The position numbers and the translations under genes were made by a program. From an uncultured Actinomycetes bacterium (GTDB taxonomy: Bacteria > Actinomycetota > Thermoleophilia > Gaiellales > F1-60-MAGs149), in NCBI GenBank assembly GCA_963779685.1, contig CAVZZG010000003.1:1095382-1159381 (forward strand): a DNA stretch of 64,000 bases, given 5' to 3'. Each line of letters begins with the position of its first letter. The stretch's first letter is position 1. Shown here piece after piece: positions 23,330 through 31,480 of this stretch. The notes beneath the pieces are model-generated. The model was not told the origin of the DNA and did no database searches. It saw only the letters and a program-made list of their open reading frames with translations.

Positions 23330-24997
23330 TTAGAGATCGCCACGGGCGAAGCCCGCGATCACCTCCGGGGCGGAGGTGTCGAAGCCGACGACGTCGAGCA
23401 TGCCGGCGTCGTTCGGATCGGCGATCGTGAAGCGGTTCGCGACCATGCCGACCACGACCAGCTTCGCCGGGATGCCGGTCGCCTGGCGGTAGCGGCGGAG
23501 CGCCTCGGCCGGGTGGATGTCACCCGCCCAGGTCTCGGAGTCGGTGTAGATCACGAACGTGTCGACCGCCCGGCCCAGCCGCCGCGCGTAGCGCATCGGG
23601 CAGCGAGCAGTCGGTGGCGCCGAACGGCAGGTCCGACACGGTCTTGACCACGTCGTTCAGCCGCTGCCGGGCCGACATCGCCAGCGGCGTCAGACCCGTC
23701 GGGCCCCAGCCGCGCGCGGCCCGAGCCCGCCCGCCAGCCGCCCCGGCCGGCGTGGAAGCCCACCACCTCGGCGTCCGGGTCGGACGCCAGCGTGACGAGC
23801 GCCATCGCGGCCGACGCCACCCGCGGCGTCAGGCCCGGAGCACGCCGCGACCATGCCCATCTCCATCGAGCCCGAGACGTCGAGCGCCAGCAGGAGACGG
23901 GCTGCCGGTCGGCGTGACGTTCGGGAACGCCAGGTAGAAGGCGCGGTCGAGGGCGTCGACGAGCCGCGCCACCGGCACCCACGTGTGCTGGCCGCGGAGA
24001 CCACGGCCGGCCGCGTACGTGCGCTGGGCCACGAGCAGGGCGATCGGGTGCAGCCGGGCCCGCCGGATCCGGTCGCGGATCGCCAGCTCGCGCCTGCACC
24101 GTGCGGACCGCGTCGGAACCCGGCGCGAGCAGGCCGACCCGGGTCATCGTCGCGAGGTTCCGCACCATGGCCGTCATCGGCATGTCCTCGAGCAGGGCCT
24201 CCCACACCGACGGGGCCGTGAGGTGCTCCGGCTGGAGCGCCTCGCGCGGCAGCCGGTACTCGGCGCACGAGCGCCGCCGACTCCGCCGGCGATCCCGCCC
24301 GCTGTGCGCGGACGAAGCCCTCGACGATCCGCGGCAGGTCCTCGGCCATCGTGCCGCGGACGATCCACTCGAACAGGCGCGCCTGCTCGGGCGACACCCG
24401 AAGCGTCGGGTTGCCGGCCGAGACGGCGGCCGCCGGGTGGGCCAGCCGCAGCACGTCGCGGTGCGTCATGCCCTCGCGCTGGCGGTACTTGACCGCCTGG
24501 TAGGCGAGCTCGTCGACGCCGCGACCGGCGTACCAGCGAGCCCACCGCCCGGCGAAGGGCACGACCCCAGCCGCGCCAGCCGTCGACGTAGCCGACGAAC
24601 TGGAACAGGTGCGTCGCCGTGCGGGCGACCTGCGGCAGCGCCCGCAGCGCCGCCTGGCGGGTGGCCAGGTCGGACGCCGAGGCCGCGCGGGCCAGGGCGA
24701 ACACCGCCGGGTCGTTGCTCGGCGCGCGGCCTGCCTGCGAGACCGCCACGATCTCGGCCACCGTGCGCGGGCCGTCTGCGGCCAGGCAAGCGTCGAGCGC
24801 GTCGGCGTTCTCGAGCGTCAGGCGCCGCTCGCCGGCGTAGAACGAGCCACCCTCGGAGCCCAGGATCAGGAACCGGCGCAGCCGCGTCCACTCGTCGGCC
24901 GAAAGACGAAGCCTCCGGCCGAGTTGCGCACCTGGTCGGCGCGGATGGACTCCCGCTGGTGCGGGGTGCGCTTCGCGAAGCGCGTGAGGTAGGACAT
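23330..24997 (-). CDS. rsr: Ro60/TROVE-domain RNA-binding protein with C-terminal vWA (about 8 frameshifts)
   Basis: Segments in changing frames: QVRNSAGGFVF, RLRRFLILGSEGGSFY, RTATHLFQF, QAVKYRQREG.THRDVLRLAHP, MPMTAMVRNL, RLHP, ALDVSGSM, GATDCSLP, YTDSETW, VVGFDTSAP. RBS GGAAAGGAGG. Confidence 0.9.
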
Positions 24998-25043: not shown

Positions 25044-25170
25044 GGCGCGGTCGTGGTGCGCAACTGGCGGTAGGCGCTCTACCGATTGAGCTACGAGGCC
25101 AAGGCCCCGGCAGGACTCGAACCTGCAACCTCCGCACTGAAGCGGTAACCAGCTTGCTCCGGCCCGCGCC
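25044..25170 (-). ncRNA. yrlA: YrlA-type Y RNA (tRNA mimic)
   Basis: Terminal stem GGCGCGG/CCGCGCC with GCCGGAG and CACGA. Internal T-arm GCAGGTTCGAGTCCTGC, loop-closed acceptor CGGGGCC-TT-GGCCTCG, then D-arm TAGCTCAATCGGTAGAGC. Lies between rtcB and rsr. Confidence 0.88.
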
Positions 25171-25186: not shown

Positions 25187-26631
25187 TCAGTCTTCGGGCT
25201 TCTCGCCGCCGTCGGCCATGCGGACGATCCGTGGCCGGAAGCGGGCGACGATCTCGACGAGATCGGTCTGGCGACCCATCACCTCGTCGATGTCCTTGTA
25301 GGCGAACGGGTTCTCGTCGATGCCGGCCGCCAGCAGCCGGACGCCCCGCTCCCGAAGCAGCGGCTGGACGTCCTTCCAGGTGAACCGCCGCCGGGCCTCG
25401 GTGCGACTCATCGCCCGGCCGGCGCCGTGGGAGGCCGACTCGAGGCTCTCGGCCGAGCCGAGACCGCGGACGACGAAGCCGGGGGCGGCCATCGAGCCCG
25501 GGATCACCCCGAGCACGCCGGCCCCGGCGGGCGTCGCGCCCTTGCGGTGCACGACCACGTCGCGGTCGTCGTGCCGCTCGCGCCAGGCGAAGTTGTGGTG
25601 GTTCTCGACCCCGGCCAGCGCCTCCGCCTTGAGCGACCGGACGACGTTGCGGTGGATCACCTCGTGGCTGGCCGCCGCGTAGTCGCCCATCAGCTCCATC
25701 GCCGCCCAGTACTCCTGGCCCGCCTCGTGATCGAGGTCGAGCCAGGCGAGGTAGGCGAGCTCCTTCGGCAGCTCCGGGTGCAGGCCGCGGGCGACCTTGG
25801 TGTAGTGGTTGGCGACGGCCGCACCAGCGCCGCGGCTGCCCGAGTGGGACAGCAGGGCGAGGTAGCGGCCGGCATCGAGGCCGAGCCCGGCCTCCGCGAG
25901 CTCGAGCTCGCCGAACTCGACGAAGTGGTTGCCGGAGCCGGACGTGCCGAGCTGGGTCGCCGCCTTGTCGCGCAACGTGCGGGTGAGCCCGGTGACGCCC
26001 CAGCATCGGCGTCCATGACCTCGTGGTCGTTCGGCCGGGCAGCCGTCGCGCCGGTGCCGAACACGGTCTGCTTCAGCAGCGCGCGCTCGAGCGTCTCCGG
26101 CGCCGTGTCGATCATCCCCGGGTCGAGGTCGAGCACCGTCAGCCTCATCCGGCAGGCGATGTCGACGCCGACGGCGTAGGGGATGACCGTGCCCTCGGTG
26201 GCGAGCACGCCGCCGATCGGCAGGCCGTAGCCGAGGTGGGCGTCCGGCATCAGCGCGCCGCGGACGGCGCTCGGCAGCCGAGCGGCGTTGCGCATCTGGT
26301 CGACGGCCAGGCGCTCGTCGGGATCGCACCAGACCGCGAAGGGCGCGGGGGCCGGCCGATCATGGAAGACCGGCTCGGTGGCCTCGGCCACGAGACGCGC
26401 CGCGACCGCGCCGAACTGGGCGTGATCGACGTTGCCGGCCGGATCGGCCAGCACGGCGCTCAGCTGATCCAGCGCCGCCTGCCGGCCGAGGCGCTTGACC
26501 GCGCCGGGCAGGATGCGCATGACGTCGCCGAACACCGGGCCCTCCGGCAGGCCGAGCGCACGGAGCTCATCGCCCCGCACTGGCCGGTTTGCCTTGCCGT
26601 CCGCCACGGACGCACGATAGGCGCGACCCAT
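25187..26631 (-). CDS. rtcB: RtcB RNA ligase with N-terminal extension (one frameshift near 26005)
   Basis: MPDAHLGYGLPIGG, VGVDIAC, LGTSGSGNHFVE, SHSGSRG, HHNFA, HRKGAT, PGSM, SHGAGR, AYKDI. Confidence 0.93.
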
Positions 26632-26656: not shown

Positions 26657-26729
26657 CTCGCCCGGCTGGATTCGAACCAGCGACCCCGTCCTCCGCAAGG
26701 ACGTGCCCTCTCCACTGGGCTACGGGCGA
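26657..26729 (-). tRNA. tRNA-Arg(GCG)
   Basis: TCGCCCG/CGGGCGA acceptor; anticodon loop TT-GCG-GA; T-loop TTCGAAT. Confidence 0.88.
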
Positions 26730-26734
26730 TCGAG

Positions 26735-26808
26735 TACGCCTGGCACGATTCGAACGTGCGACCTGGTGGGCCGGAACCACCCGCTCATGTCCACTGAGCT
26801 ACAGGCGT
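26735..26808 (-). tRNA. tRNA-Arg(CCG)
   Basis: ACGCCTG/CAGGCGT acceptor; loop TT-CCG-GC. Confidence 0.9.
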
Positions 26809-26816
26809 GCGTGAGG

Positions 26817-26888
26817 TGGAGCACCAGGGATTCGAACCCCGATCCCGGGTTTAAGAGACCCTTGCTCTGGCCGTTGAGCTAGTGCTCC
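26817..26888 (-). tRNA. tRNA-Lys(CTT)
   Basis: GGAGCAC/GTGCTCC acceptor; loop CT-CTT-AA. Confidence 0.87.
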
Positions 26889-26895
26889 GTGAAGG

Positions 26896-26967
26896 CGATC
26901 CAGAAGGGATTCGAACCCTCGCCTTCCCGCTCGACAGGCGGGCGCTCTACCGTTGAGCTACTGGACC
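26896..26967 (-). tRNA. tRNA-Asp(GTC)
   Basis: GGTCCAG/CTGGATC acceptor; loop CT-GTC-GA; G73. Confidence 0.9.
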
Positions 26968-26971
26968 GGGA

Positions 26972-27043
26972 TGCTACGGGCTGGAGTCGAACCAGCGCCC
27001 TCCGGGTTTCAACCGGATGCTCTTCCTGCTGAGCTACCGCAGC
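26972..27043 (-). tRNA. tRNA-Phe(GAA)
   Basis: GCTGCGG/CCGTAGC acceptor; loop TT-GAA-AC. Confidence 0.9.
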
Positions 27044-27056
27044 GCGGGTGCCGTGA

Positions 27057-27128
27057 AGCTGCGGGCCGGGATCGAACCGGCCTCATCCGGTTGGCGGCCG
27101 GACGCTCTGCCTGATGAGCTACCGCAGC
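27057..27128 (-). tRNA. tRNA-Gly(GCC), C33
   Basis: GCTGCGG/CCGCAGC acceptor; loop CC-GCC-AA; U73. Confidence 0.85.
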
Positions 27129-27133
27129 GTGCA

Positions 27134-27206
27134 TGGCTGGAGCAGGACTCGAACCTGCGATCAACCGGTTATGAGCCGGCTGCTCTTGCCGCTGAGCCAT
27201 CCAGCC
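27134..27206 (-). tRNA. tRNA-CAT (elongator Met or Ile2)
   Basis: GGCTGGA/TCCAGCC acceptor; loop CT-CAT-AA. Confidence 0.88.
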
Positions 27207-27210
27207 GGGA

Positions 27211-27283
27211 TAGGCGACCAACGAGTCGAACGTTGCTCTCCGGCGTATCAGACCGGTGTCTTCAACCGATGGACCAGTCGCCT
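27211..27283 (-). tRNA. tRNA-Ile(GAT)
   Basis: AGGCGAC/GTCGCCT acceptor; loop CT-GAT-AC. Confidence 0.85.
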
Positions 27284-27292
27284 GGGCGGAAG

Positions 27293-27366
27293 TGGACGAG
27301 GAGGGCATCGAACCCCCGATCTCCTCTTTGTAAGAGAGGCGCTCTACCAAGCTGAACCACTCGTCC
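27293..27366 (-). tRNA. tRNA-Val(TAC)
   Basis: GGACGAG/CTCGTCC acceptor; loop CT-TAC-AA. Confidence 0.9.
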
Positions 27367-27372
27367 GTGGAG

Positions 27373-27444
27373 ATCCAGGGGGAGGGGTCGAACCTCCGCC
27401 TCCGCGTTCAGAGCGCGGCCACCTGCCATTAGTAGGACCCTGGA
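27373..27444 (-). tRNA. tRNA-Gln(CTG)
   Basis: U1-A72 acceptor TCCAGGG/CCCTGGA; loop CT-CTG-AA. Confidence 0.85.
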
Positions 27445-27515
27445 AGCCGAGTGCAGGAGTCGAACCTGCGTCTGCCGTTTACGAGACGGCAGCTCTCCCC
27501 TTGAGCTAACCCGGC
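27445..27515 (-). tRNA. tRNA-Thr(CGT)
   Basis: GCCGGGT/ACTCGGC acceptor; loop CT-CGT-AA. Confidence 0.9.
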
Positions 27516-27566
27516 GAGTCGTGTTGTCGCGTTCAGCTAGCCGGAACTCCGTTGGGAGTTCCGGCA

Positions 27567-27638
27567 TGGAGCCGAGGGGAATCGAACCCCTGACCCTCTC
27601 CTTGCGAGGGAGGTGCCCGGCCATCGGGCGACAGCCCC
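27567..27638 (-). tRNA. tRNA-Ala(CGC)
   Basis: GGGGCTG/CGGCTCC with G3:U70; loop CT-CGC-AA. Confidence 0.9.
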
Positions 27639-27652
27639 GTGCTACGGGCCGA

Positions 27653-27726
27653 GGTGGCCTGTGGGACTCGAACCCACTGACGCCGGGTTCACAACCCGGA
27701 CCCTCGTCCGCTTCGGGATAGGCCAC
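27653..27726 (-). tRNA. tRNA-His(GTG)
   Basis: GTGGCCT/AGGCCAC acceptor, C73; loop TT-GTG-AA; irregular 8/9 junction. Confidence 0.8.
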
Positions 27727-27728
27727 AG

Positions 27729-27803
27729 CTCGTACGCCAGGCCTCGAACCTGGACCCCGCCGGGTAACAGCCGGCTGCTCTACCGCGATTGAGCTACGTA
27801 CGA
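27729..27803 (-). tRNA. tRNA-Asn(GTT)
   Basis: TCGTACG/CGTACGA acceptor; loop CT-GTT-AC; G73. Confidence 0.88.
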
Positions 27804-27876
27804 CACCTGCGCAAGGATTCGAACCCTGACTTGACCGGGTTGGAGCCGGCCGTGCTCGCCGTTACACCACACAGGT
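27804..27876 (-). tRNA. tRNA-Trp(CCA)
   Basis: ACCTGTG/CGCAGGT acceptor; loop CT-CCA-AC; G73. Confidence 0.87.
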
Positions 27877-27881
27877 ACGGA

Positions 27882-27955
27882 TGACGCCCCTGGGATTCGA
27901 ACCCAGACCGATCCGGGTCTGGGCCGGATTCCTCTGCCAGTTGGGATAGAGCGCC
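27882..27955 (-). tRNA. tRNA-Leu(CAG), short variable loop, C33
   Basis: GGCGCTC/GGGCGTC acceptor; Leu-like D-loop; loop CC-CAG-AC; 5-nt variable region; A73. Confidence 0.8.
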
Positions 27956-27968
27956 GTGGAAGACGAGG

Positions 27969-28052
27969 TCGAGGGAGCGGGAGTCGAACCCGCACAGCCC
28001 GTGGGCACCGGTTTTACAGACCGCTGGGCTCGCCCGTGCCCGGTGTCCCTCG
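27969..28052 (-). tRNA. tRNA-Tyr(GTA)
   Basis: CGAGGGA/TCCCTCG acceptor; loop CT-GTA-AA; long variable arm. Confidence 0.8.
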
Positions 28053-28057
28053 ATGAA

Positions 28058-28147
28058 TGGAGGAGAGCTGGCGAGTCGAACGCCCGGGCCAGTGACCCGT
28101 CACGCCGGCTTTCGAGGCCGGTTGGCCCCCGCGGGCCGAAACTCTCC
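28058..28147 (-). tRNA. tRNA-Ser(CGA), non-canonical fold, encoded CCA
   Basis: GGAGAGTT/AGCTCTCC; loop CT-CGA-AA; long variable arm; ends TCCA. Confidence 0.8.
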
Positions 28148-28154
28148 GTGCGAG

Positions 28155-28227
28155 CGGCTCTGGCGGGAATCGAACCCGATCGTCGCGAGGTTGAGGGCCT
28201 CGCATCCTGCCATTAGACGACAGAGCC
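28155..28227 (-). tRNA. tRNA-Glu(CTC), C33
   Basis: GGCTCTG/CAGAGCC acceptor; loop CC-CTC-AA; G73. Confidence 0.83.
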
Positions 28228-28238
28228 TGGGTTGGAAT

Positions 28239-28321
28239 GCTGCGGTCGTGGGGCACGGCCCGGTGCGAGTCGGATTCGAACCGAATGAGCGCCAGATAAC
28301 CGGGCCGACTCGGCCCGCAGC
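28239..28321 (-). ncRNA. Y RNA-like gene with a T-arm only
   Basis: GCTGCGG-GCCGAG...CACGA-CCGCAGC terminal motif as in YrlA; 9-bp CGGCCCGGT/ACCGGGCCG stem; TCGG-TTCGAAT-CCGA hairpin. Confidence 0.75.
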
Positions 28322-28328
28322 GAGTGGA

Positions 28329-28402
28329 TCTGGCCGGCAGGAGTCGAACCTGCGGTCTCCGGCGCCCGAAGCCGGTGGGGTGGCCGGCTCCCCTACAGCC
28401 AG
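28329..28402 (-). tRNA. tRNA-Pro(CGG)
   Basis: C1-G72 CTGGCTG/CGGCCAG; loop TT-CGG-GC; A73. Confidence 0.9.
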
Positions 28403-28415
28403 GTAGGTGCGGAGC

Positions 28416-28490
28416 TGCGCGGTCGTGTCGTCCCGACCGGGTGTGGGTTTCGATGTGCAGTTCGAGAACCGGAAGGGTCCGGCCCGCGCA
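28416..28490 (-). ncRNA. Y RNA-like gene without tRNA-like arms
   Basis: TGCGCGG-GCCGGA...CACGA-CCGCGCA terminal motif; inner CCC/GGG and CCGG/CCGG pairing around a large loop. Confidence 0.65.
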
Positions 28491-28499
28491 TCTCCGGCA

Positions 28500-28572
28500 T
28501 GGCGCGGGCAGGAGTCGAACCTGCTCTCTCGAGCTCATGAAGCTCGCGGGATCCCCGTTTCCCCACCGCGCG
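28500..28572 (-). tRNA. initiator-like tRNA-fMet(CAT)
   Basis: CGCGCGG/CCGCGCC with C1xC72 mismatch; loop TT-CAT-GA. Confidence 0.83.
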
Positions 28573-28864
28573 TTGCGTGTGCCTCTGTCGGTCGGGCCGT
28601 TGGGCCAGACGTCCTGTTCATGCCACTCGCCCACCCTTCGACCCTGGATCGCCAAGACGGCGTCCTCCGTGGAGGGGTGCTGGAGCCCGGAGCCTCAAGA
28701 TCTGTCATGTGTCAGGGCACGCTGACGCACATCTGCCACATGACAGATGGCTATGACATCTCGAGAGGGCCTTTCTCTCTCGGGCGGGGCCTCGATGGTT
28801 GAATTGACTTCTTCAAGATGGGCGGCTCACTGGTTGGGATTGGACGAGCGACTGGTGGAGGACG

Positions 28865-28892
28865 AAAAAGGCGACCGCTTCGGGTCGCCTTC
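28865..28892 (-). terminator. intrinsic terminator (putative attenuator)
   Basis: AAGGCGACC-CGAAGC-GGTCGCC followed by TTTTT. Confidence 0.75.
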
Positions 28893-28919
28893 GCGTCGAA
28901 CCGGGATGCAGCCAGGGAT

Positions 28920-29030
28920 CTAGCGTGCATTCCTCCCGACGCGGAGGCTTGTGGGTGCGTAGGCGCGATCGAGCCACAGACTCGGTCGGCCTTCGGCAGA
29001 ACATGGATCGATTGCGTGGAACAACATCAC
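28920..29030 (-). CDS. putative leader peptide (36 aa)
   Basis: GTG ATG TTG...CGC TAG = MMLFHAIDPCSAEGRPSLWLDRAYAPTSLRVGRNAR. Starts at the predicted TSS; its 3' end overlaps the antiterminator strand. Confidence 0.5.
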   Translation of the reverse strand: MMLFHAIDPCSAEGRPSLWLDRAYAPTSLRVGRNAR

Positions 29031-29037
29031 GGGTCTC

Positions 29038-29066
29038 ACCTTACACGGTGGAGCGGACGGATGCAA
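29038..29066 (-). promoter_or_regulatory. sigma70-type promoter for the leader/tRNA array
   Basis: TTGCAT (29066-29061), 17-nt spacer, TAAGGT (29043-29038). Confidence 0.6.
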
Positions 29067-30558
29067 GTGCTACTTGACAATTCGTCGGTGCCGAACGTGA
29101 CCCCGCATACGCGTGTAGCCAACTCTCGAGCGCGAGCAACTGCCACAACTTCATCCCACGACGGCCCGTGGGGACATCCGGATCGAGGAGCCGCTCGAGG
29201 TACTCGCGCCGGATCAGACCGCGCGGCGCCAGGCCGTCCAGCAGGCGCTCGCGCGCGTAGCGGGACAGCGAACCGGTCAGCCACCCCGTGACGGGCACCC
29301 GCATGCCCGACTTGGGGCGATCGATCACCGCGTCGGGCACCAGCCCACGCGCGACCTGCTTCAGCACGTGCTTCTCCGTCGTCCCGTGGAGCCGCAACGA
29401 CGCCGGCAGTGACGCCGCGAGCTCGGCGACCGCACGGTCGAACAGCGGCGATGCGGGCACGACGCTTGCAGCCGCACCCAGGTGCTCGACCTTGGGCAGG
29501 ATGTGGCTGGCGCCCTTGAGGGTGATGTTGGCCGCCATCAGGCGGCCCACCAGCGTCGGCCACCGGTTGTCCGAGAGCATCGGTTGCAGCTCCGCCGCGA
29601 GACCGCCCGCGTGGGCGGCCAGCTCGGGCTCGAGCATCGTCTGCAGGTCCGCGTAGCAGCGGCGATGCGCGAGGAGGTAGGCCTCCGCCCGCTCCTGGCC
29701 GTACAGGTCAGCGGCCAGCATCGGCAGGTTCTTCGGTCCGCCGAAGCAGGGGTCGCCGCCCTCCCCGTTCAGCAGCACCGGCACGCCCACCTCGGCGAAG
29801 AGCCTTGCATTCGGCACGGTCAGCGGGTCGCCGTTGGGCGACGACAGCGACGCCATGGTCGAGTCGAGCCGTTCGACCACGTCGCGCGGCCCGACCTCGA
29901 CAACGTGGTGCTGTCCGCCCAGGTGGCCGGCGACGAGCCGCGCGTACTCCAGCTCGTTCGGGTACTCGGGCCCGAAGGAGAGCGACCACAGCACCGGGCG
30001 TTCCCCCTGGGCGAACGCGAGCGCCGCTACCAGACTCGAATCGATGCCGCCGGACAGGCTCGCCGCGCCGGCCCAGACGGCCCGTCGAGACACGGCACCG
30101 GCCAGGGCCTGGCGAAGCCGCGCGACCGCCTCGGGCTCTTCGATCTGCCGCTCGGCGGGGAGCGACCAGAACCGCCGGCTCGTCACGTGGCGGCCGTCGT
30201 AGACCACCTCCTCCCCGGGCCGCACCGATCGCACGCCGTCGAGCAGCGTCCGGGGCGCGGGCACGTAGCTGTAGGAGAGGTAGGCGGCGAGCGCCTCCGG
30301 ATCGATGGCGGGGTCATCCGCCAGGTCGCGCGAGCGGGTCGAGAACCGGAGACCGCCGTCAACCAGGGAGTAGAAGAGACTGCAGGCGCCGACGGCGTCG
30401 CGCGCGAGGTGGATCGTGCCCGCCGCGTCGCGCCACGCCATGGCGAAGCCACCATCCACCTCGCCGAGTGCCCCGGCGGCGATGGCCCGCTCCCACGATC
30501 GCCCCTGGCCGGGCGATGTCCACGGCTCCGTGGCGAGAAGGAGCACCTCAGCCGTCAT
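29041..30558 (-). CDS. asparagine synthetase-like ATP-dependent amide ligase
   Basis: LARDAVG, SLSGGIDSS, LNGEGGD, EKHVLK, RPKSG; no N-terminal catalytic Cys. Confidence 0.8.
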   Translation of the reverse strand: MTAEVLLLATEPWTSPGQGRSWERAIAAGALGEVDGGFAMAWRDAAGTIHLARDAVGACSLFYSLVDGGLRFSTRSRDLADDPAIDPEALAAYLSYSYVPAPRTLLDGVRSVRPGEEVVYDGRHVTSRRFWSLPAERQIEEPEAVARLRQALAGAVSRRAVWAGAASLSGGIDSSLVAALAFAQGERPVLWSLSFGPEYPNELEYARLVAGHLGGQHHVVEVGPRDVVERLDSTMASLSSPNGDPLTVPNARLFAEVGVPVLLNGEGGDPCFGGPKNLPMLAADLYGQERAEAYLLAHRRCYADLQTMLEPELAAHAGGLAAELQPMLSDNRWPTLVGRLMAANITLKGASHILPKVEHLGAAASVVPASPLFDRAVAELAASLPASLRLHGTTEKHVLKQVARGLVPDAVIDRPKSGMRVPVTGWLTGSLSRYARERLLDGLAPRGLIRREYLERLLDPDVPTGRRGMKLWQLLALESWLHAYAGSRSAPTNCQVALASVRSTV

Positions 30559-31480
30559 CGGTATCGCCACCCCAGGCGAACACCGACATGTCCCAGCCGT
30601 CGCCGCCGCCGTCGTGCACGGCGCTGCCGAATGGCGGGGGCGGAGCGAAGACCGCGCCGACGGCCGCCAGCGTGACACGCGGAGGCATCGCCGTGAGGTC
30701 GAGCCGGTTCCTCCGCAGCCACCTGCGATCGCGTCTCGTGCCCCAGTCGATCCCCGCTCCGCGCACCTCGTTGACGGCGAGCAGCCCGCGCCCGCGCCGG
30801 CGGGCCACGTCGACCGAAAGGCCGGCATCGACGACCCGCGCACGGCCGTCGAGCACCTCCCGCTGGAACCAGGCATCGTCGCCCAGGAGGCGTCGCGGGA
30901 GCCCGACTCCGGCCGTGTCGGCGTCGTGGAGGGCAACGACGGTGAGCGACTCCGACCGCCGCACCGCCGGCAGCGCGCGGGCGAAGACCGCCTCGGGGTA
31001 GCCGTCGACCGCGACGATCGGCGCCACCGTTTCCATGTGCGCGCGGTTCGCGATCAGGAAGTCGGCGGTCGTTCGCGTGTCGCAGACCACCAGGCGGTCG
31101 AAGACGGCGCCGTCGAGATCCGGAACGTCGACGGACGGCTCGTACACCGGCGCGGCGGTCAGGAGGCCCGGCGTCGCATTGCCGGCTGCGCGCCAGCGGG
31201 CGAGGTCGACGTCGAACCGGTACCGCGACACCGGCCGAAGTCGGTGGAGGGCCCGCCGTAGCCCGGACTTGAGGTAGCGCCGGCAGAGCTCGCCGTGGAG
31301 ATGACCGTCGGTGTAGCGGAGGCCGTCCGCCCCGGCCAGCGACGTCATCGCCCGCGACCACACGAGGTCGGAGACGAGATCGCCGGACTTCTTCCCGAAC
31401 ACGAACCGGTAGCCGCAACCCGCGCAGACCTCGCCTGCGAACGAGGGCCGGACGCTGTGCTGACAGGTCGGGCAGATCAT
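30548..31480 (-). CDS. Zn-ribbon protein with possible TOPRIM-like domain
   Basis: CPTC...CAGC; VDGYP; VVALHDADTAG. Confidence 0.55.
   Translation of the reverse strand: MICPTCQHSVRPSFAGEVCAGCGYRFVFGKKSGDLVSDLVWSRAMTSLAGADGLRYTDGHLHGELCRRYLKSGLRRALHRLRPVSRYRFDVDLARWRAAGNATPGLLTAAPVYEPSVDVPDLDGAVFDRLVVCDTRTTADFLIANRAHMETVAPIVAVDGYPEAVFARALPAVRRSESLTVVALHDADTAGVGLPRRLLGDDAWFQREVLDGRARVVDAGLSVDVARRRGRGLLAVNEVRGAGIDWGTRRDRRWLRRNRLDLTAMPPRVTLAAVGAVFAPPPPFGSAVHDGGGDGWDMSVFAWGGDTDDG

What the first reader, a model, noticed from the sequence alone, without database searches (positions are those of the whole stretch)
28865..29066. Putative ribosome-sensing attenuator whose leader samples nearly all amino acids
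Seen: promoter TTGCAT-N17-TAAGGT, with a GTG ATG start 8 nt after the -10 box (leaderless). The 36-codon ORF uses 18 amino acids, and 13 different residues occur in the 14 codons from the ATG. A terminator follows at 28892-28865. GCCTCCGCGTCGGG (28948-28935, late codons) can pair with TTCGACGCGAAGGC (28900-28887) at 13/14 positions including 2 G-U, sequestering the terminator 5' arm. Known: this is classical attenuator geometry, but known leaders are enriched for one amino acid. Inference: loss of almost any tRNA stalls the ribosome early, permits antitermination and induces the spare tRNAs. Caveats: the promoter overlaps the last codons of the upstream gene, and 13/36 codons end in A/T, which could also mean the ORF is non-coding.
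Basis: partly seen in the sequence, partly recalled or inferred. Interest (0 to 1): 0.88.

Follow-up and report, generated by a model that had tools for sequence, protein, structure and literature searches.

The report
Possible attenuator guarding a tRNA array
A short open reading frame followed by a strong transcription stop signal sits in front of a block of 21 spare tRNA genes and RNA-repair genes, built like this genome's own amino-acid attenuators, so it may switch the spare tRNAs on when protein synthesis falters, though no expression data exist.

Summary

Points in favour of a real leader:
- TANNNT followed 6-10 nt later by ATG/GTG is this genome's standard leaderless gene start.
- TAAGGT is the only such hexamer on this strand between 31200 and 26977.
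- The terminator is one of 9 strict ones in 4.26 Mb. Two of the others follow a WWWW leader before trpE and a leaderless 7-codon Leu leader before leuS.
- The trpE leader has the same geometry: stop inside a hairpin, terminator next to it, 4 nt of overlap.
- Unrelated actinobacterial plasmid arrays carry a conserved uORF plus terminator before their first tRNA.

Points against:
- The antiterminator overlaps only 4 of 9 arm bases, with an equilibrium probability of 0.2-0.3%.
- GC3 is 0.64 against 0.93 for genes.
- TAAGGT overlaps a TAA stop codon.
- There is no ortholog and no RNA data.

Downstream lies one apparent operon: 21 supernumerary tRNAs, rtcB, a YrlA-like Y RNA and a Ro/TROVE gene.

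Verdict: probably (about 0.45) a translation-sensing attenuator, a new variant of a known kind. It is unproven.

The parts
29041..30936 (-). Upstream co-directional gene, Asn-synthase family (631-aa ORF; the true start may lie further in). Its TAA stop is at 29043-29041.
   Evidence: ORF list. Pfam Asn_synthase E 3e-53. Every NCBIfam hit is below its cutoff, and the lasso-cyclase models score only 48-80 bits.
29038..29066 (-). Promoter-like TTGCAT-N17-TAAGGT; the -10-like TAAGGT is at 29043-29038.
   Evidence: Sequence. It is the only minus-strand TANNNT between 31200 and 26977. TANNNT is this genome's -10. The PWM score is neutral, and TAAGGT occurs in 3 of 706 leaderless promoters.
28920..29030 (-). 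Candidate leaderless leader ORF: GTG 29030 (ATG 29027), 36 sense codons, TAG at 28922-28920.
   Evidence: GC3 is 0.64 against 0.93 for genes. 18 amino-acid kinds. 16 of 36 codons are readable by array tRNAs.
28950..29003 (-). Predicted upstream hairpin inside the ORF (core 28992-28961).
   Evidence: Minimum-energy folds. Prediction only.
28892..28943 (-). P1 hairpin, 21 bp. Its 5' arm is the last codons of the ORF, and the UAG stop pairs near its tip. It abuts the terminator.
   Evidence: Pair probabilities 0.87-0.99.
28887..28948 (-). Basal extension of P1 (28948-28945 with 28890-28887).
   Evidence: It is present in folds of the transcript before the terminator 3' arm exists. It lies 3.8 kcal/mol above the terminator state, with equilibrium probability 0.002-0.003.
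28865..28891 (-). Intrinsic terminator: 9-bp stem, 6-nt loop, U5.
   Evidence: One of 9 strict terminators in 4.26 Mb.
28573..28864 (-). 292-nt spacer without any TANNNT. It holds a 16-nt inverted repeat (28748-28733 and 28715-28700).
   Evidence: Fold z-score -2.04. No Rfam match at E up to 1.
26657..28572 (-). Array of 21 tRNA genes covering 19 amino acids (no Cys; 2 Met, 2 Arg). It is supernumerary to a dispersed set.
   Evidence: ARAGORN, Rfam, whole-genome tRNA list.
25187..26631 (-). rtcB (RNA ligase). AGGAGG plus ATG begin 26 nt after the last tRNA. The reading frame shifts near 25990-26000.
   Evidence: Pfam RtcB E 3e-64. The two frames are shown. Start context.
25068..25134 (-). YrlA-like Y RNA (tRNA-like domain).
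   Evidence: Rfam RF02553, 46.5 bits, E 2e-8, below the gathering score of 69; model positions 23-89 only.
23330..24997 (-). Ro60/TROVE (rsr-like) gene, read in at least three frames.
   Evidence: Pfam TROVE E 3.5e-7. Frames. Start.

Best explanation
The stretch 29066-28865 is the 5' leader of one long transcription unit: a 21-tRNA array, rtcB, a YrlA-like Y RNA and a Ro/TROVE gene.

Proposed steps, all inferred from motifs and folds:
1. A sigma-A type -10 (TAAGGT) starts a leaderless mRNA at or near G29030.
2. Ribosomes translate the 36-codon ORF.
3. The last codons of the ORF are the 5' arm of hairpin P1, which stands directly against a strong intrinsic terminator.
4. When translation runs normally, the ribosome reaches the end of the ORF and holds P1 open. 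The terminator then folds unhindered and transcription stops after about 165 nt.
5. When the leader ribosome fails to start, or stalls anywhere in roughly the first 25 codons, P1 folds first. Its 4-bp basal extension holds the first bases of the terminator's 5' arm, so some polymerases read through into the spare tRNAs and the RNA-repair genes.

Shown directly: the sequence elements, their rarity, their match to this genome's leaderless gene starts and to its own trpE and leuS leaders, and the absence of another -10-like hexamer before the array.

Inferred only: the transcript start, translation of the ORF, the kinetic competition, and the read-through.
For: 1. TANNNT is the -10 of this genome. 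It is present in 44 of 59 upstream regions of dispersed tRNA genes, against 0.064 expected per 110 nt.
2. Long high-GC3 ORFs start 6, 7, 8, 9 or 10 nt after a TANNNT 320, 241, 145, 104 and 95 times, against about 35 at other offsets. The window has TAAGGT-N7-GTG.
3. On the minus strand between 31200 and 22300 there are 5 TANNNT. The others lie inside the array (26976), inside rtcB (26619), at the rsr stop (23332) and beyond (23216). rtcB starts 26 nt after the last tRNA.
4. Only 9 strict terminators exist in 4.26 Mb. One follows a 30-codon WWWW leader before trpE. One follows TATACT-N7-GTG plus a 7-codon, 2-Leu ORF before leuS.
5. The trpE leader's hairpin also holds its UAG stop and abuts the terminator. 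Before the 3' arm exists, 4 of 8 of its 5'-arm bases are paired elsewhere, against 4 of 9 in the window and 6 of 9 in the leuS leader.
6. The combination of -10, leaderless short ORF and terminator occurs at 8 loci genome-wide. One of these is the leuS leader and at least one is an artefact inside a tRNA.
7. Non-homologous analogues exist. Three Micrococcaceae plasmids share a promoter, an SD-led uORF of 52, 51 and 50 codons (20, 19 and 20 kinds; in-frame indels; 13 nonsynonymous against 5 synonymous changes between two of them), a terminator, and the first tRNA about 50 nt later with no TANNNT in between. A Miltoncostaea plasmid has an ORF plus terminator 224 nt before its first tRNA. In that case the terminator disappears in folds with the ribosome on early codons.
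8. A metagenome contig about 96% identical covers 28478-29573 with 47 substitutions and no gap.
Against: - The competing pairing is only 4 bp. It is 3.8 kcal/mol less stable than the terminator state and has equilibrium probability 0.2-0.3%.
- The terminator forms in the minimum-energy fold for all 37 simulated ribosome positions. That test also reports a terminator at every position for the trpE and leuS leaders, so it cannot decide.
- GC3 of the ORF is 0.64 against 0.93 for genes, and 13 of its codons are rare, as expected for non-coding DNA.
- An ORF of this length arises in 22% of shuffles.
- TAAGGT contains the TAA stop of the upstream gene. Its third-position A is seen in 4% of leaderless promoters. 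The promoter score is at the 20th percentile of true ones, and 37% of other TANNNT sites score as high.
- Leaderless short ORFs as a class are not enriched at offsets 6-10.
- The terminator is 292 nt from the first tRNA, against about 16-18 nt to the trpE and leuS starts. That leaves room for a promoter of another type.
- 20 of the 36 codons are not read by any array tRNA.
- rtcB and the Ro gene appear frameshifted, so the island may be decaying.
- No homologous leader was found in 40 relatives, in 400 genomes of the phylum, or in plasmids and phages.
- 3 of the 6 array lineages examined (L097, L104, L109) have no T-tract terminator within 300 nt of the array start.
Confidence: 0.45

Rival explanations
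1. The hairpin plus U-tract is an ordinary terminator or insulator that ends the upstream Asn-synthase-family operon and shields the horizontally acquired tRNA island. TAAGGT, the GTG and the ORF are coincidences. The array is either silent or driven by an unrecognised promoter in the 292-nt spacer.
For: - The terminator lies 150 nt after a co-directional gene's stop.
- The -10-like hexamer is built on that gene's TAA stop, and its score is neutral.
- The ORF has non-genic codon usage, and its length is expected in 22% of shuffles.
- The spacer is long and holds a 16-nt inverted repeat that could be an operator.
- The one L-array studied experimentally (Anabaena) is controlled by a repressor at its promoter (PMC8421152 passages; PMC10272220 abstract).
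- One other strict terminator follows a GroEL-like gene end.
Against: - Strict terminators are very rare at gene ends here: 9 in the genome, of which 3 have a long gene ending within 400 nt upstream. One of those three is a tRNA terminator and one is the leuS leader.
- 5 of the 9 have a TANNNT within 150 nt upstream, against about 0.8 expected (my own estimate from the TANNNT rate).
- There is no TANNNT in the spacer, although 44 of 59 tRNA genes have one within 110 nt.
- My rough estimate, not a simulation, is that chance alone would give about 0.35 loci with the full -10/leaderless-ORF/terminator combination genome-wide. Eight are observed.
Confidence: 0.27
2. The unit is a self-contained small gene: the promoter at 29043 gives a transcript of about 165 nt that always ends at the terminator. 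It encodes a 36-aa protein or acts as a small RNA, with no role in array expression.
For: - In this genome, strict terminators mostly end short transcripts that begin at a nearby TANNNT, such as a tRNA and a possible sRNA.
- The terminator is predicted to form whatever the ribosome position.
- The Micrococcaceae uORF keeps some residues across its three copies.
Against: - The array, rtcB, the Y RNA and the Ro gene would then have no -10-like element of their own.
- The peptide matches no NCBIfam family (the 48-aa frame).
- The non-genic codon usage argues against a conserved protein.
- There is no Rfam match.
Confidence: 0.15
3. It is a real attenuator, but the sensor is not the ribosome. A protein or an RNA, for example damaged or uncharged tRNA, binds the leader (P1 or the upstream hairpin) and decides between termination and read-through. 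The ORF is incidental.
For: - The leader RNA is more structured than shuffles (z -2.66).
- The ribosome-linked competing pairing is weak.
- The rsr-Y RNA-rtcB operon of Salmonella is switched on by tRNA fragments through RtcR (abstracts in the search listing).
Against: - No T-box or other Rfam family matches at E up to 1.
- No regulator gene was recognised next to the island.
- The -10 to GTG spacing and the stop-in-hairpin geometry match this genome's leader-peptide attenuators.
Confidence: 0.1

Closest known systems
Leader-peptide transcription attenuators of amino-acid operons (trp, leu, his type), including this genome's own trpE and leuS leaders
   Same: A promoter, a short ORF, a hairpin that includes the end of the ORF, and an intrinsic terminator ahead of the regulated genes. 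The same genome has a WWWW leader before trpE with the same stop-in-hairpin geometry and the same 4-nt overlap, and a leaderless TATACT-N7-GTG Leu leader before leuS.
   Different: No amino acid is enriched (18 kinds in 36 codons). The regulated genes are tRNAs and RNA-repair genes, not a biosynthetic operon or a synthetase. The terminator is 292 nt from the first downstream gene, not about 16-18 nt. No anti-antiterminator (1:2) pairing was seen.
Leaderless polycysteine short ORFs that act as attenuators in mycobacteria (Canestrari et al., bioRxiv 10.1101/834739; abstract read)
   Same: A leaderless short ORF as the first cistron. The position of the ribosome on it changes the downstream RNA structure and so the expression of the operon.
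   Different: Those ORFs sense one amino acid through a Cys tract and free a sequestered ribosome-binding site, which is translational control. Here there is no tract, an intrinsic terminator, and non-coding downstream genes.
toiL, a uORF that senses several classes of ribosome-targeting antibiotics (Baniulyte and Wade, bioRxiv 10.1101/682021; abstract read). Recalled, not looked up: the antibiotic-sensing leaders of erm, vmlR and bmrCD.
   Same: The idea of a general translation-stress sensor: stalls at different positions in one uORF change the leader structure and switch on downstream genes.
   Different: toiL acts through ribosome-binding-site occlusion and Rho-dependent termination upstream of a toxin-antitoxin pair. 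Here there is an intrinsic terminator upstream of tRNAs.
Long tRNA arrays (L-arrays) and their control in Anabaena (PMC8421152, passages read; TrcR repressor, PMC10272220, abstract read)
   Same: A supernumerary array of 21 tRNAs next to rtcB. In Anabaena the array and rtcB are induced together when translation is impaired.
   Different: Anabaena uses direct repeats at the promoter and the RHH repressor TrcR. The words 'attenuat', 'leader' and 'terminator' do not occur in the main text of PMC8421152. Here no such repeats were sought at the -10, and a terminator sits in the leader.
The rsr-yrlBA-rtcBA RNA-repair operon of Salmonella (abstracts in the search listing; YrlA paper PMC4201824, passages read)
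   Same: A Ro/TROVE gene, a YrlA-like Y RNA and rtcB are linked.
   Different: The gene order is different, and the module is fused behind a tRNA array. No RtcR or sigma-54 control was recognised. rtcB and the Ro gene appear frameshifted.

Membership tests
Ribosome-mediated (leader-peptide) transcription attenuator | A promoter and transcript start just upstream of a short ORF | tested here: inconclusive
   TAAGGT-N7-GTG fits the genome's leaderless spacing, but the hexamer overlaps a stop codon and scores neutrally. No RNA run holds the stretch.
Ribosome-mediated (leader-peptide) transcription attenuator | The short ORF is translated | not testable with these tools
   No ribosome profiling is available. 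GC3 of 0.64 against 0.93 neither proves nor excludes translation of a leader.
Ribosome-mediated (leader-peptide) transcription attenuator | An intrinsic terminator between the ORF and the regulated genes | tested here: met
   9-bp stem plus U5 at 28891-28865. One of 9 strict terminators in the genome.
Ribosome-mediated (leader-peptide) transcription attenuator | An alternative pairing that excludes the terminator and is governed by ribosome position | tested here: inconclusive
   Only 4 of 9 arm bases are shared, the energy difference is 3.8 kcal/mol, and the probability is 0.002-0.003. The overlap is the same as in the genome's trpE leader (4 of 8). The masked-ribosome test fails on that control too.
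Ribosome-mediated (leader-peptide) transcription attenuator | Regulatory codons enriched for the amino acid being sensed | tested here: not met
   18 kinds in 36 codons with no run. It is therefore not a classical single-amino-acid attenuator; at most it works like one.
Ribosome-mediated (leader-peptide) transcription attenuator | The downstream genes depend on read-through (no promoter of their own) | tested here: inconclusive
   No TANNNT in 28864-28573. Promoters of other sigma factors cannot be excluded.
Ribosome-mediated (leader-peptide) transcription attenuator | The ORF and hairpins are kept in relatives | tested here: inconclusive
   No homologous leader in 40 relatives, 400 genomes of the phylum, plasmids or phages. 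One contig about 96% identical has no gap, but the positions of its 47 substitutions were not shown.
Long tRNA array (L-array / tRNA array unit) | About 20 or more tRNA genes at high density, additional to a full dispersed set | tested here: met
   21 tRNAs in 1916 nt. The genome also has a dispersed set.
Long tRNA array (L-array / tRNA array unit) | Patchy distribution and horizontal origin | tested here: inconclusive
   The array was not found in the 40 relatives or the 400 genomes of the phylum searched. The nearest rtcB relatives are in other phyla. No flanking repeats or integrase were seen.
Ro60-Y RNA-RtcB RNA-repair module | A TROVE protein, a YrlA-type Y RNA within a few kb, and the RtcB ligase | tested here: met
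   Pfam TROVE and RtcB. RF02553 at 46.5 bits, E 2e-8, below the gathering score. Both genes are read in more than one frame.
T-box or other described cis-regulatory RNA | A match to a curated covariance model | tested here: not met
   No Rfam hit in 28573-29100 at E up to 1.
Lasso-peptide precursor beside an Asn-synthase-like cyclase | A cyclase-type Asn-synthase homologue, a B protease/RRE gene, and a precursor with a Thr at -2 and a Gly1...Asp/Glu7-9 core (features recalled, not looked up) | tested here: not met
   The lasso and macrolactam cyclase models score 48-80 bits against cutoffs of 300-525, below the general Asn-synthase models. No B or RRE family was found in the neighbours. The peptide lacks the Thr at -2.

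The most novel reading that the evidence does not exclude
The leader is a general translation-failure sensor. Its ORF carries nearly every amino acid and many rare codons. Loss or cleavage of almost any tRNA, or any block to initiation or elongation, keeps the leader ribosome away from hairpin P1 and lets RNA polymerase pass the terminator. That switches on a spare tRNA set together with the RtcB ligase and a Ro/Y-RNA particle. It would be a cis-acting counterpart of the RtcR and TrcR circuits. The same design (uORF plus terminator before the first tRNA) would have arisen independently in Micrococcaceae and Miltoncostaea plasmid arrays.
Probability: 0.3. Interest if true: 0.85.

Novelty: new variant of a known kind. 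Interest (0 to 1): 0.68.

Why it matters
Long tRNA arrays are widespread, mobile and poorly understood. The only one studied in depth (Anabaena) is induced by translation stress through a repressor.

A leader-peptide attenuator in front of an array would be a second, purely cis-acting way to tie spare tRNAs and RNA repair to the state of the ribosome. It would also be the first attenuator whose leader is not tuned to one amino acid yet controls tRNA genes.

It links three topics that are usually treated apart: tRNA arrays (proposed as stress or anti-defence devices), the Ro/Y-RNA/RtcB repair module, and leaderless sensory short ORFs of Actinobacteria.

The idea is directly testable with end mapping and reporter fusions. 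The plasmid analogues found here give a second, better conserved system in culturable Arthrobacter relatives.

I found no paper that joins tRNA arrays with attenuation or leader peptides. In one search, the one listed paper that holds both kinds of term is about CRISPR spacer uptake.

Tried and rejected
Searches for homologous leaders, none found:
- DNA of 28573-29100 in 40 relatives: 0 matches.
- Array plus spacer in 400 genomes of the phylum at E 1e-25: 0 matches.
- Phages and plasmids: single-tRNA matches only.
- Exact 25-nt terminator pattern in viral contigs: 0.

Searches through neighbouring proteins:
- Asn-synthase gene in 300 genomes of the order: 12 matched at E 1e-30. The 6 loci scanned held at most one tRNA.
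- The same protein in metagenome contigs: 1 weak locus.
- rtcB in genome contigs: 80 loci kept. 13 of them hold 1-2 tRNAs and none holds an array.
- A TROVE piece in viral contigs: 2 loci, with 2 and 0 tRNAs.

tRNA family search in the order:
- 5 genomes with many candidates were searched again and gave 49-67 tRNAs. No long array appeared among the 150 of 280 rows listed. This does not show absence.

Peptide search: the Arthrobacter uORF peptide had no candidate among proteins of 28-91 residues. The window's own peptide was not searched this way.

Sequencing runs:
- No RNA holder is listed.
- Three DNA metagenome runs were laid. Most pieces were under 90% alike, from other organisms.

Equilibrium folding with a masked ribosome footprint was rejected as a test. 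It also calls 'terminator' at every position for the trpE and leuS leaders.

Genome shuffles in 200-nt blocks as a null for terminators were rejected. They create about six times more T-runs than the real genome (2117 against 346).

Retention of amino-acid diversity among the three plasmid uORFs is not significant (P 0.49 and 0.06).

Other readings set aside:
- Lasso-peptide precursor: rejected.
- Sigma-54 or ECF promoter in the spacer: looked at by eye only, nothing convincing.
- A TGTCAT-rich stretch at contig C1 about 77340-77410 resembles the spacer's repeat, but the alignment is at chance level.

Not available or not used:
- Supplementary files were not opened. Those of PMC8421152 (promoter mapping, array synteny) and PMC4201824 (lists of Y RNAs) may bear on how arrays in Actinobacteria are arranged.
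Full report
WHAT IS THERE. All features are on the minus strand.
- An Asn-synthase-family gene (30936-29041; Pfam E 3e-53) ends with TAA at 29043-29041.
- That stop is the start of TAAGGT (29043-29038). TTGCAT lies 17 nt upstream of it.
- Seven nt after the hexamer comes GTG (29030), then ATG (29027).
- The frame stays open for 36 sense codons to TAG at 28922-28920.
- The minimum-energy fold of 29032-28855 is -70.1 kcal/mol, z -2.66. It shows a hairpin inside the ORF, a 21-bp hairpin P1 (28943-28892) with the UAG stop near its tip, and directly beside it a 9-bp terminator (28891-28868) whose T-run is 28869-28865.
- A 292-nt spacer with a 16-nt inverted repeat follows.
- Next come 21 tRNA genes (28572-26657).
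- rtcB starts 26 nt after the last tRNA.
- A YrlA-like Y RNA follows (46.5 bits, E 2e-8, below the gathering score), then a Ro/TROVE gene.
- The genome has a full dispersed tRNA set besides the array, so the array is supernumerary.

Each holds.
- The ORF has 18 amino-acid kinds, 13 of them within codons 2-15, and 13 of its 36 codons end in A/T.
- The pairing of 28948-28935 with 28900-28887 has 13 pairs in 14 positions.
- Nine of those pairs are simply the base of P1 and do not touch the terminator.
- Only the 4-bp extension (28948-28945 with 28890-28887) competes with it.
- That extension forms in folds of the nascent transcript before the terminator's 3' arm exists. It is 3.8 kcal/mol less stable than the terminator state and has an equilibrium probability of 0.2-0.3%.
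- The tool's consensus scan found no promoter and no terminator here. By my own count from the sequence (no call), the two hexamers match the E. coli consensus at 3 of 6 each. The stem uses two of the five T.

IS IT MORE THAN CHANCE?
- The ORF length is not: 22% of 5000 shuffles give an ORF of 36 or more codons.
- The amino-acid diversity lies in a 0.5-2% tail under four nulls, but it was picked after the fact.
- The codon usage is unlike genes: GC3 is 0.64 against a mean of 0.93 in 2653 proxy genes.
- The terminator is rare. A strict search (perfect stem of 7 or more, loop 3-8, T4 or more) finds 9 in 4.26 Mb.
- Block shuffles are a poor null for this, because they make six times more T-runs than the real genome.

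THE GENOME'S OWN RULES CHANGED MY READING.
- 44 of 59 upstream regions of dispersed tRNA genes carry a TANNNT, mostly 10-16 nt before the mature 5' end. The expectation is 0.064 per 110 nt.
- Long high-GC3 ORFs begin 6, 7, 8, 9 or 10 nt after a TANNNT 320, 241, 145, 104 and 95 times, against about 35 at other offsets. Leaderless genes are therefore the norm here, and TAAGGT-N7-GTG fits the peak.
- On the minus strand from 31200 to 22300 there are only five TANNNT.
- Cautions: the hexamer rests on a TAA stop. A at its third position is seen in 4% of 706 leaderless promoters. A position-weight score puts it at the 20th percentile of true promoters, and 37% of other TANNNT sites score as high. 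Leaderless short ORFs as a class are not enriched.

IN-GENOME CONTROLS. I looked at the other eight strict terminators.
- One follows a 30-codon ORF ending ...CGWWWWTDGRDARR and precedes an anthranilate synthase gene (TIGR00564, 467 bits).
- One follows TATACT-N7-GTG and a 7-codon ORF (VSLAPLR) and precedes leuS (TIGR00396, 1005 bits).
- The rest are: one after a tRNA-Arg, a two-way terminator counted on both strands that lies beside a tRNA-like end, one after a GroEL-like C-terminus, one inside a gene, and one possible small RNA.
- So leader-peptide attenuators with canonical terminators exist in this genome, one of them leaderless with the same spacing as the window.
- In the trpE leader the hairpin before the terminator also holds the UAG stop and abuts the terminator.
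- Before the 3' arm exists, 4 of 8 bases of the trpE terminator's 5' arm are paired elsewhere, against 4 of 9 in the window and 6 of 9 in the leuS leader.
- My equilibrium test with a masked ribosome footprint reports a terminator at all 37 positions in the window. It does the same at every position of the trpE and leuS leaders. It therefore says nothing either way.
- Genome-wide, the full combination occurs at 8 loci: a TANNNT, ATG/GTG 6-10 nt on, an ORF of 4-80 codons, then a hairpin of -12 kcal/mol or better plus T4 or more within 60 nt. These include the leuS leader and at least one artefact inside a tRNA.

RELATED SEQUENCES.
- No homologue of the leader was found anywhere.
- Neither the Asn-synthase gene nor rtcB led to another array.
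- A metagenome contig about 96% identical covers 28478-29573 with 47 substitutions and no gap. It lacks 73 nt between two tRNAs. The positions of the substitutions were not listed.

INDEPENDENT ARRAYS. I examined other tRNA arrays on actinobacterial plasmids.
- Three Micrococcaceae plasmids (L099, L100, L101) share:
  - a TACAGT -10 and a Shine-Dalgarno sequence;
  - an ATG ORF of 52, 51 and 50 codons with in-frame indels and 20, 19 and 20 amino-acid kinds;
  - near-neutral change (33 identical codons, 5 synonymous and 13 nonsynonymous differences between two of them);
  - a strong terminator, and the first tRNA about 50 nt later with no TANNNT in between.
  - The last codons of this ORF can pair with the terminator's 5' arm.
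- A Miltoncostaea plasmid (L098) has an ORF and an orphan terminator 224 nt before its first tRNA. There the terminator disappears in folds with the ribosome on early codons.
- Three Mycobacteriaceae arrays (L097, L104, L109) have no T-tract terminator within 300 nt of the array start. They share a conserved, apparently structured block instead.
- None of these leaders is alignable with the window's.
- A uORF plus terminator before an array therefore recurs in 3 of 6 lineages examined, counting the window. It is not universal.
- Retention of amino-acid diversity among the three plasmid ORFs is not significant.

WEIGHING.
- For a translation-sensing attenuator: the leaderless spacing, the lack of any other -10 before the array, the rarity of strict terminators and their use in leader units here, the geometric match to the trpE leader, and the analogues.
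- Against it: the small overlap, the non-genic codons, a -10 built on a stop codon, the long spacer, the possibly decaying rtcB and Ro genes, and the complete lack of transcript, ribosome or comparative data.
- My odds are 0.45 for the ribosome-sensing attenuator, 0.27 for a plain terminator with coincidental features, 0.15 for a self-contained short transcript, and 0.10 for an attenuator with another sensor.

COMPARISON WITH WHAT IS KNOWN.
- It works like a leader-peptide attenuator, but it fails one defining feature of the classical family, enrichment for one amino acid. I therefore file it as a possible new variant, not a member.
- The nearest published relatives are the leaderless polycysteine ORFs of mycobacteria (translational control; abstract) and toiL (many antibiotics, Rho-dependent; abstract).
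- The studied L-array of Anabaena is controlled by promoter repeats and the TrcR repressor.
- My searches found no paper linking tRNA arrays with attenuation.

Noticed in passing
window 25187-26631 (-) and 23330-24997 (-): rtcB is read in two frames, with the switch near 25990-26000 beside a G-run. The Ro/TROVE gene is read in at least three frames, with the first shift near 24905 at a T-run. Elsewhere the assembly gives normal-length frames (median 343 codons in 2322 high-GC3 frames). These are therefore either local errors or real decay of the island.
   Followed up: partly
window 25068-25134 (-): A YrlA-like Y RNA (tRNA-like domain, RF02553, 46.5 bits, E 2e-8, below the gathering score) lies between rtcB and the Ro gene. 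The tRNA array is thus fused to a Ro/Y-RNA/RtcB repair module.
   Followed up: partly
window 28700-28748 (-): A 16-nt inverted repeat (15 of 16 complementary, 17 nt apart) sits in the spacer between the terminator and the first tRNA. Its 12-nt core occurs nowhere else in the genome. It could be an RNA processing hairpin or an operator.
   Followed up: partly
L113 281-457 (G000:C3:1333781-1333957): A classical trp attenuator: a 30-codon leader with four consecutive Trp codons and a UAG stop inside a hairpin, then a strict terminator, then the start of an anthranilate synthase gene about 16 nt later.
   Followed up: yes
L112 144-276 (G000:C3:174544-174676): A leaderless leader before leuS: TATACT, 7 nt, GTG, a 7-codon ORF with 2 Leu, then a strict terminator 13 nt before the leuS ATG. 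I recall no leucyl-tRNA synthetase controlled by a leaderless Leu leader peptide, and I did not search for one.
   Followed up: partly
L099 4020-4374; L100 and L101, the equivalent stretch before tRNA-Trp: Micrococcaceae plasmid tRNA arrays begin with a conserved promoter, a small hairpin, an SD-led uORF of 50-52 codons (19-20 amino-acid kinds, in-frame indels) and a strong terminator about 50 nt before the first tRNA. This looks like an attenuator. The plasmid gene table lists no gene there.
   Followed up: partly
L098 5563-6003: On a Miltoncostaea oceani plasmid, an ORF whose UAG stop lies in a hairpin loop is followed by an orphan terminator 224 nt before three tRNAs. The neighbouring upstream gene is divergent. 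The predicted antiterminator covers the whole 5' arm.
   Followed up: partly
L097 3400-3886; L109 5330-5823; L104 1740-2361: Mycobacteriaceae plasmid arrays share a conserved block upstream of the first tRNA with complementary segments (GCTTCCGG / CCGGAAGC, and a CAGGAA...TTCCTG hairpin). The conservation is not periodic in three, so it is probably a structured RNA rather than the ORF that the frame suggests.
   Followed up: no
window 28405-28477: A metagenome contig about 96% identical to the window lacks these 73 nt between tRNA-Pro and the first tRNA-Met. The length is that of a tRNA, so this gap may hold a decayed tRNA gene.
   Followed up: no
window 26971-26976 (-): The only TANNNT inside the array (TAGCAT) lies at the 3' end of tRNA-Phe, 9 nt before tRNA-Asp. 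It could be an internal promoter for the last four tRNAs and rtcB.
   Followed up: no
G000:C3 about 208769 (+) and G000:C1 about 1268460 (-): Two further candidates of the form leaderless short ORF plus terminator (peptides MIVCAHVAPGL and MDRQGNRD). Their downstream genes were not identified.
   Followed up: no
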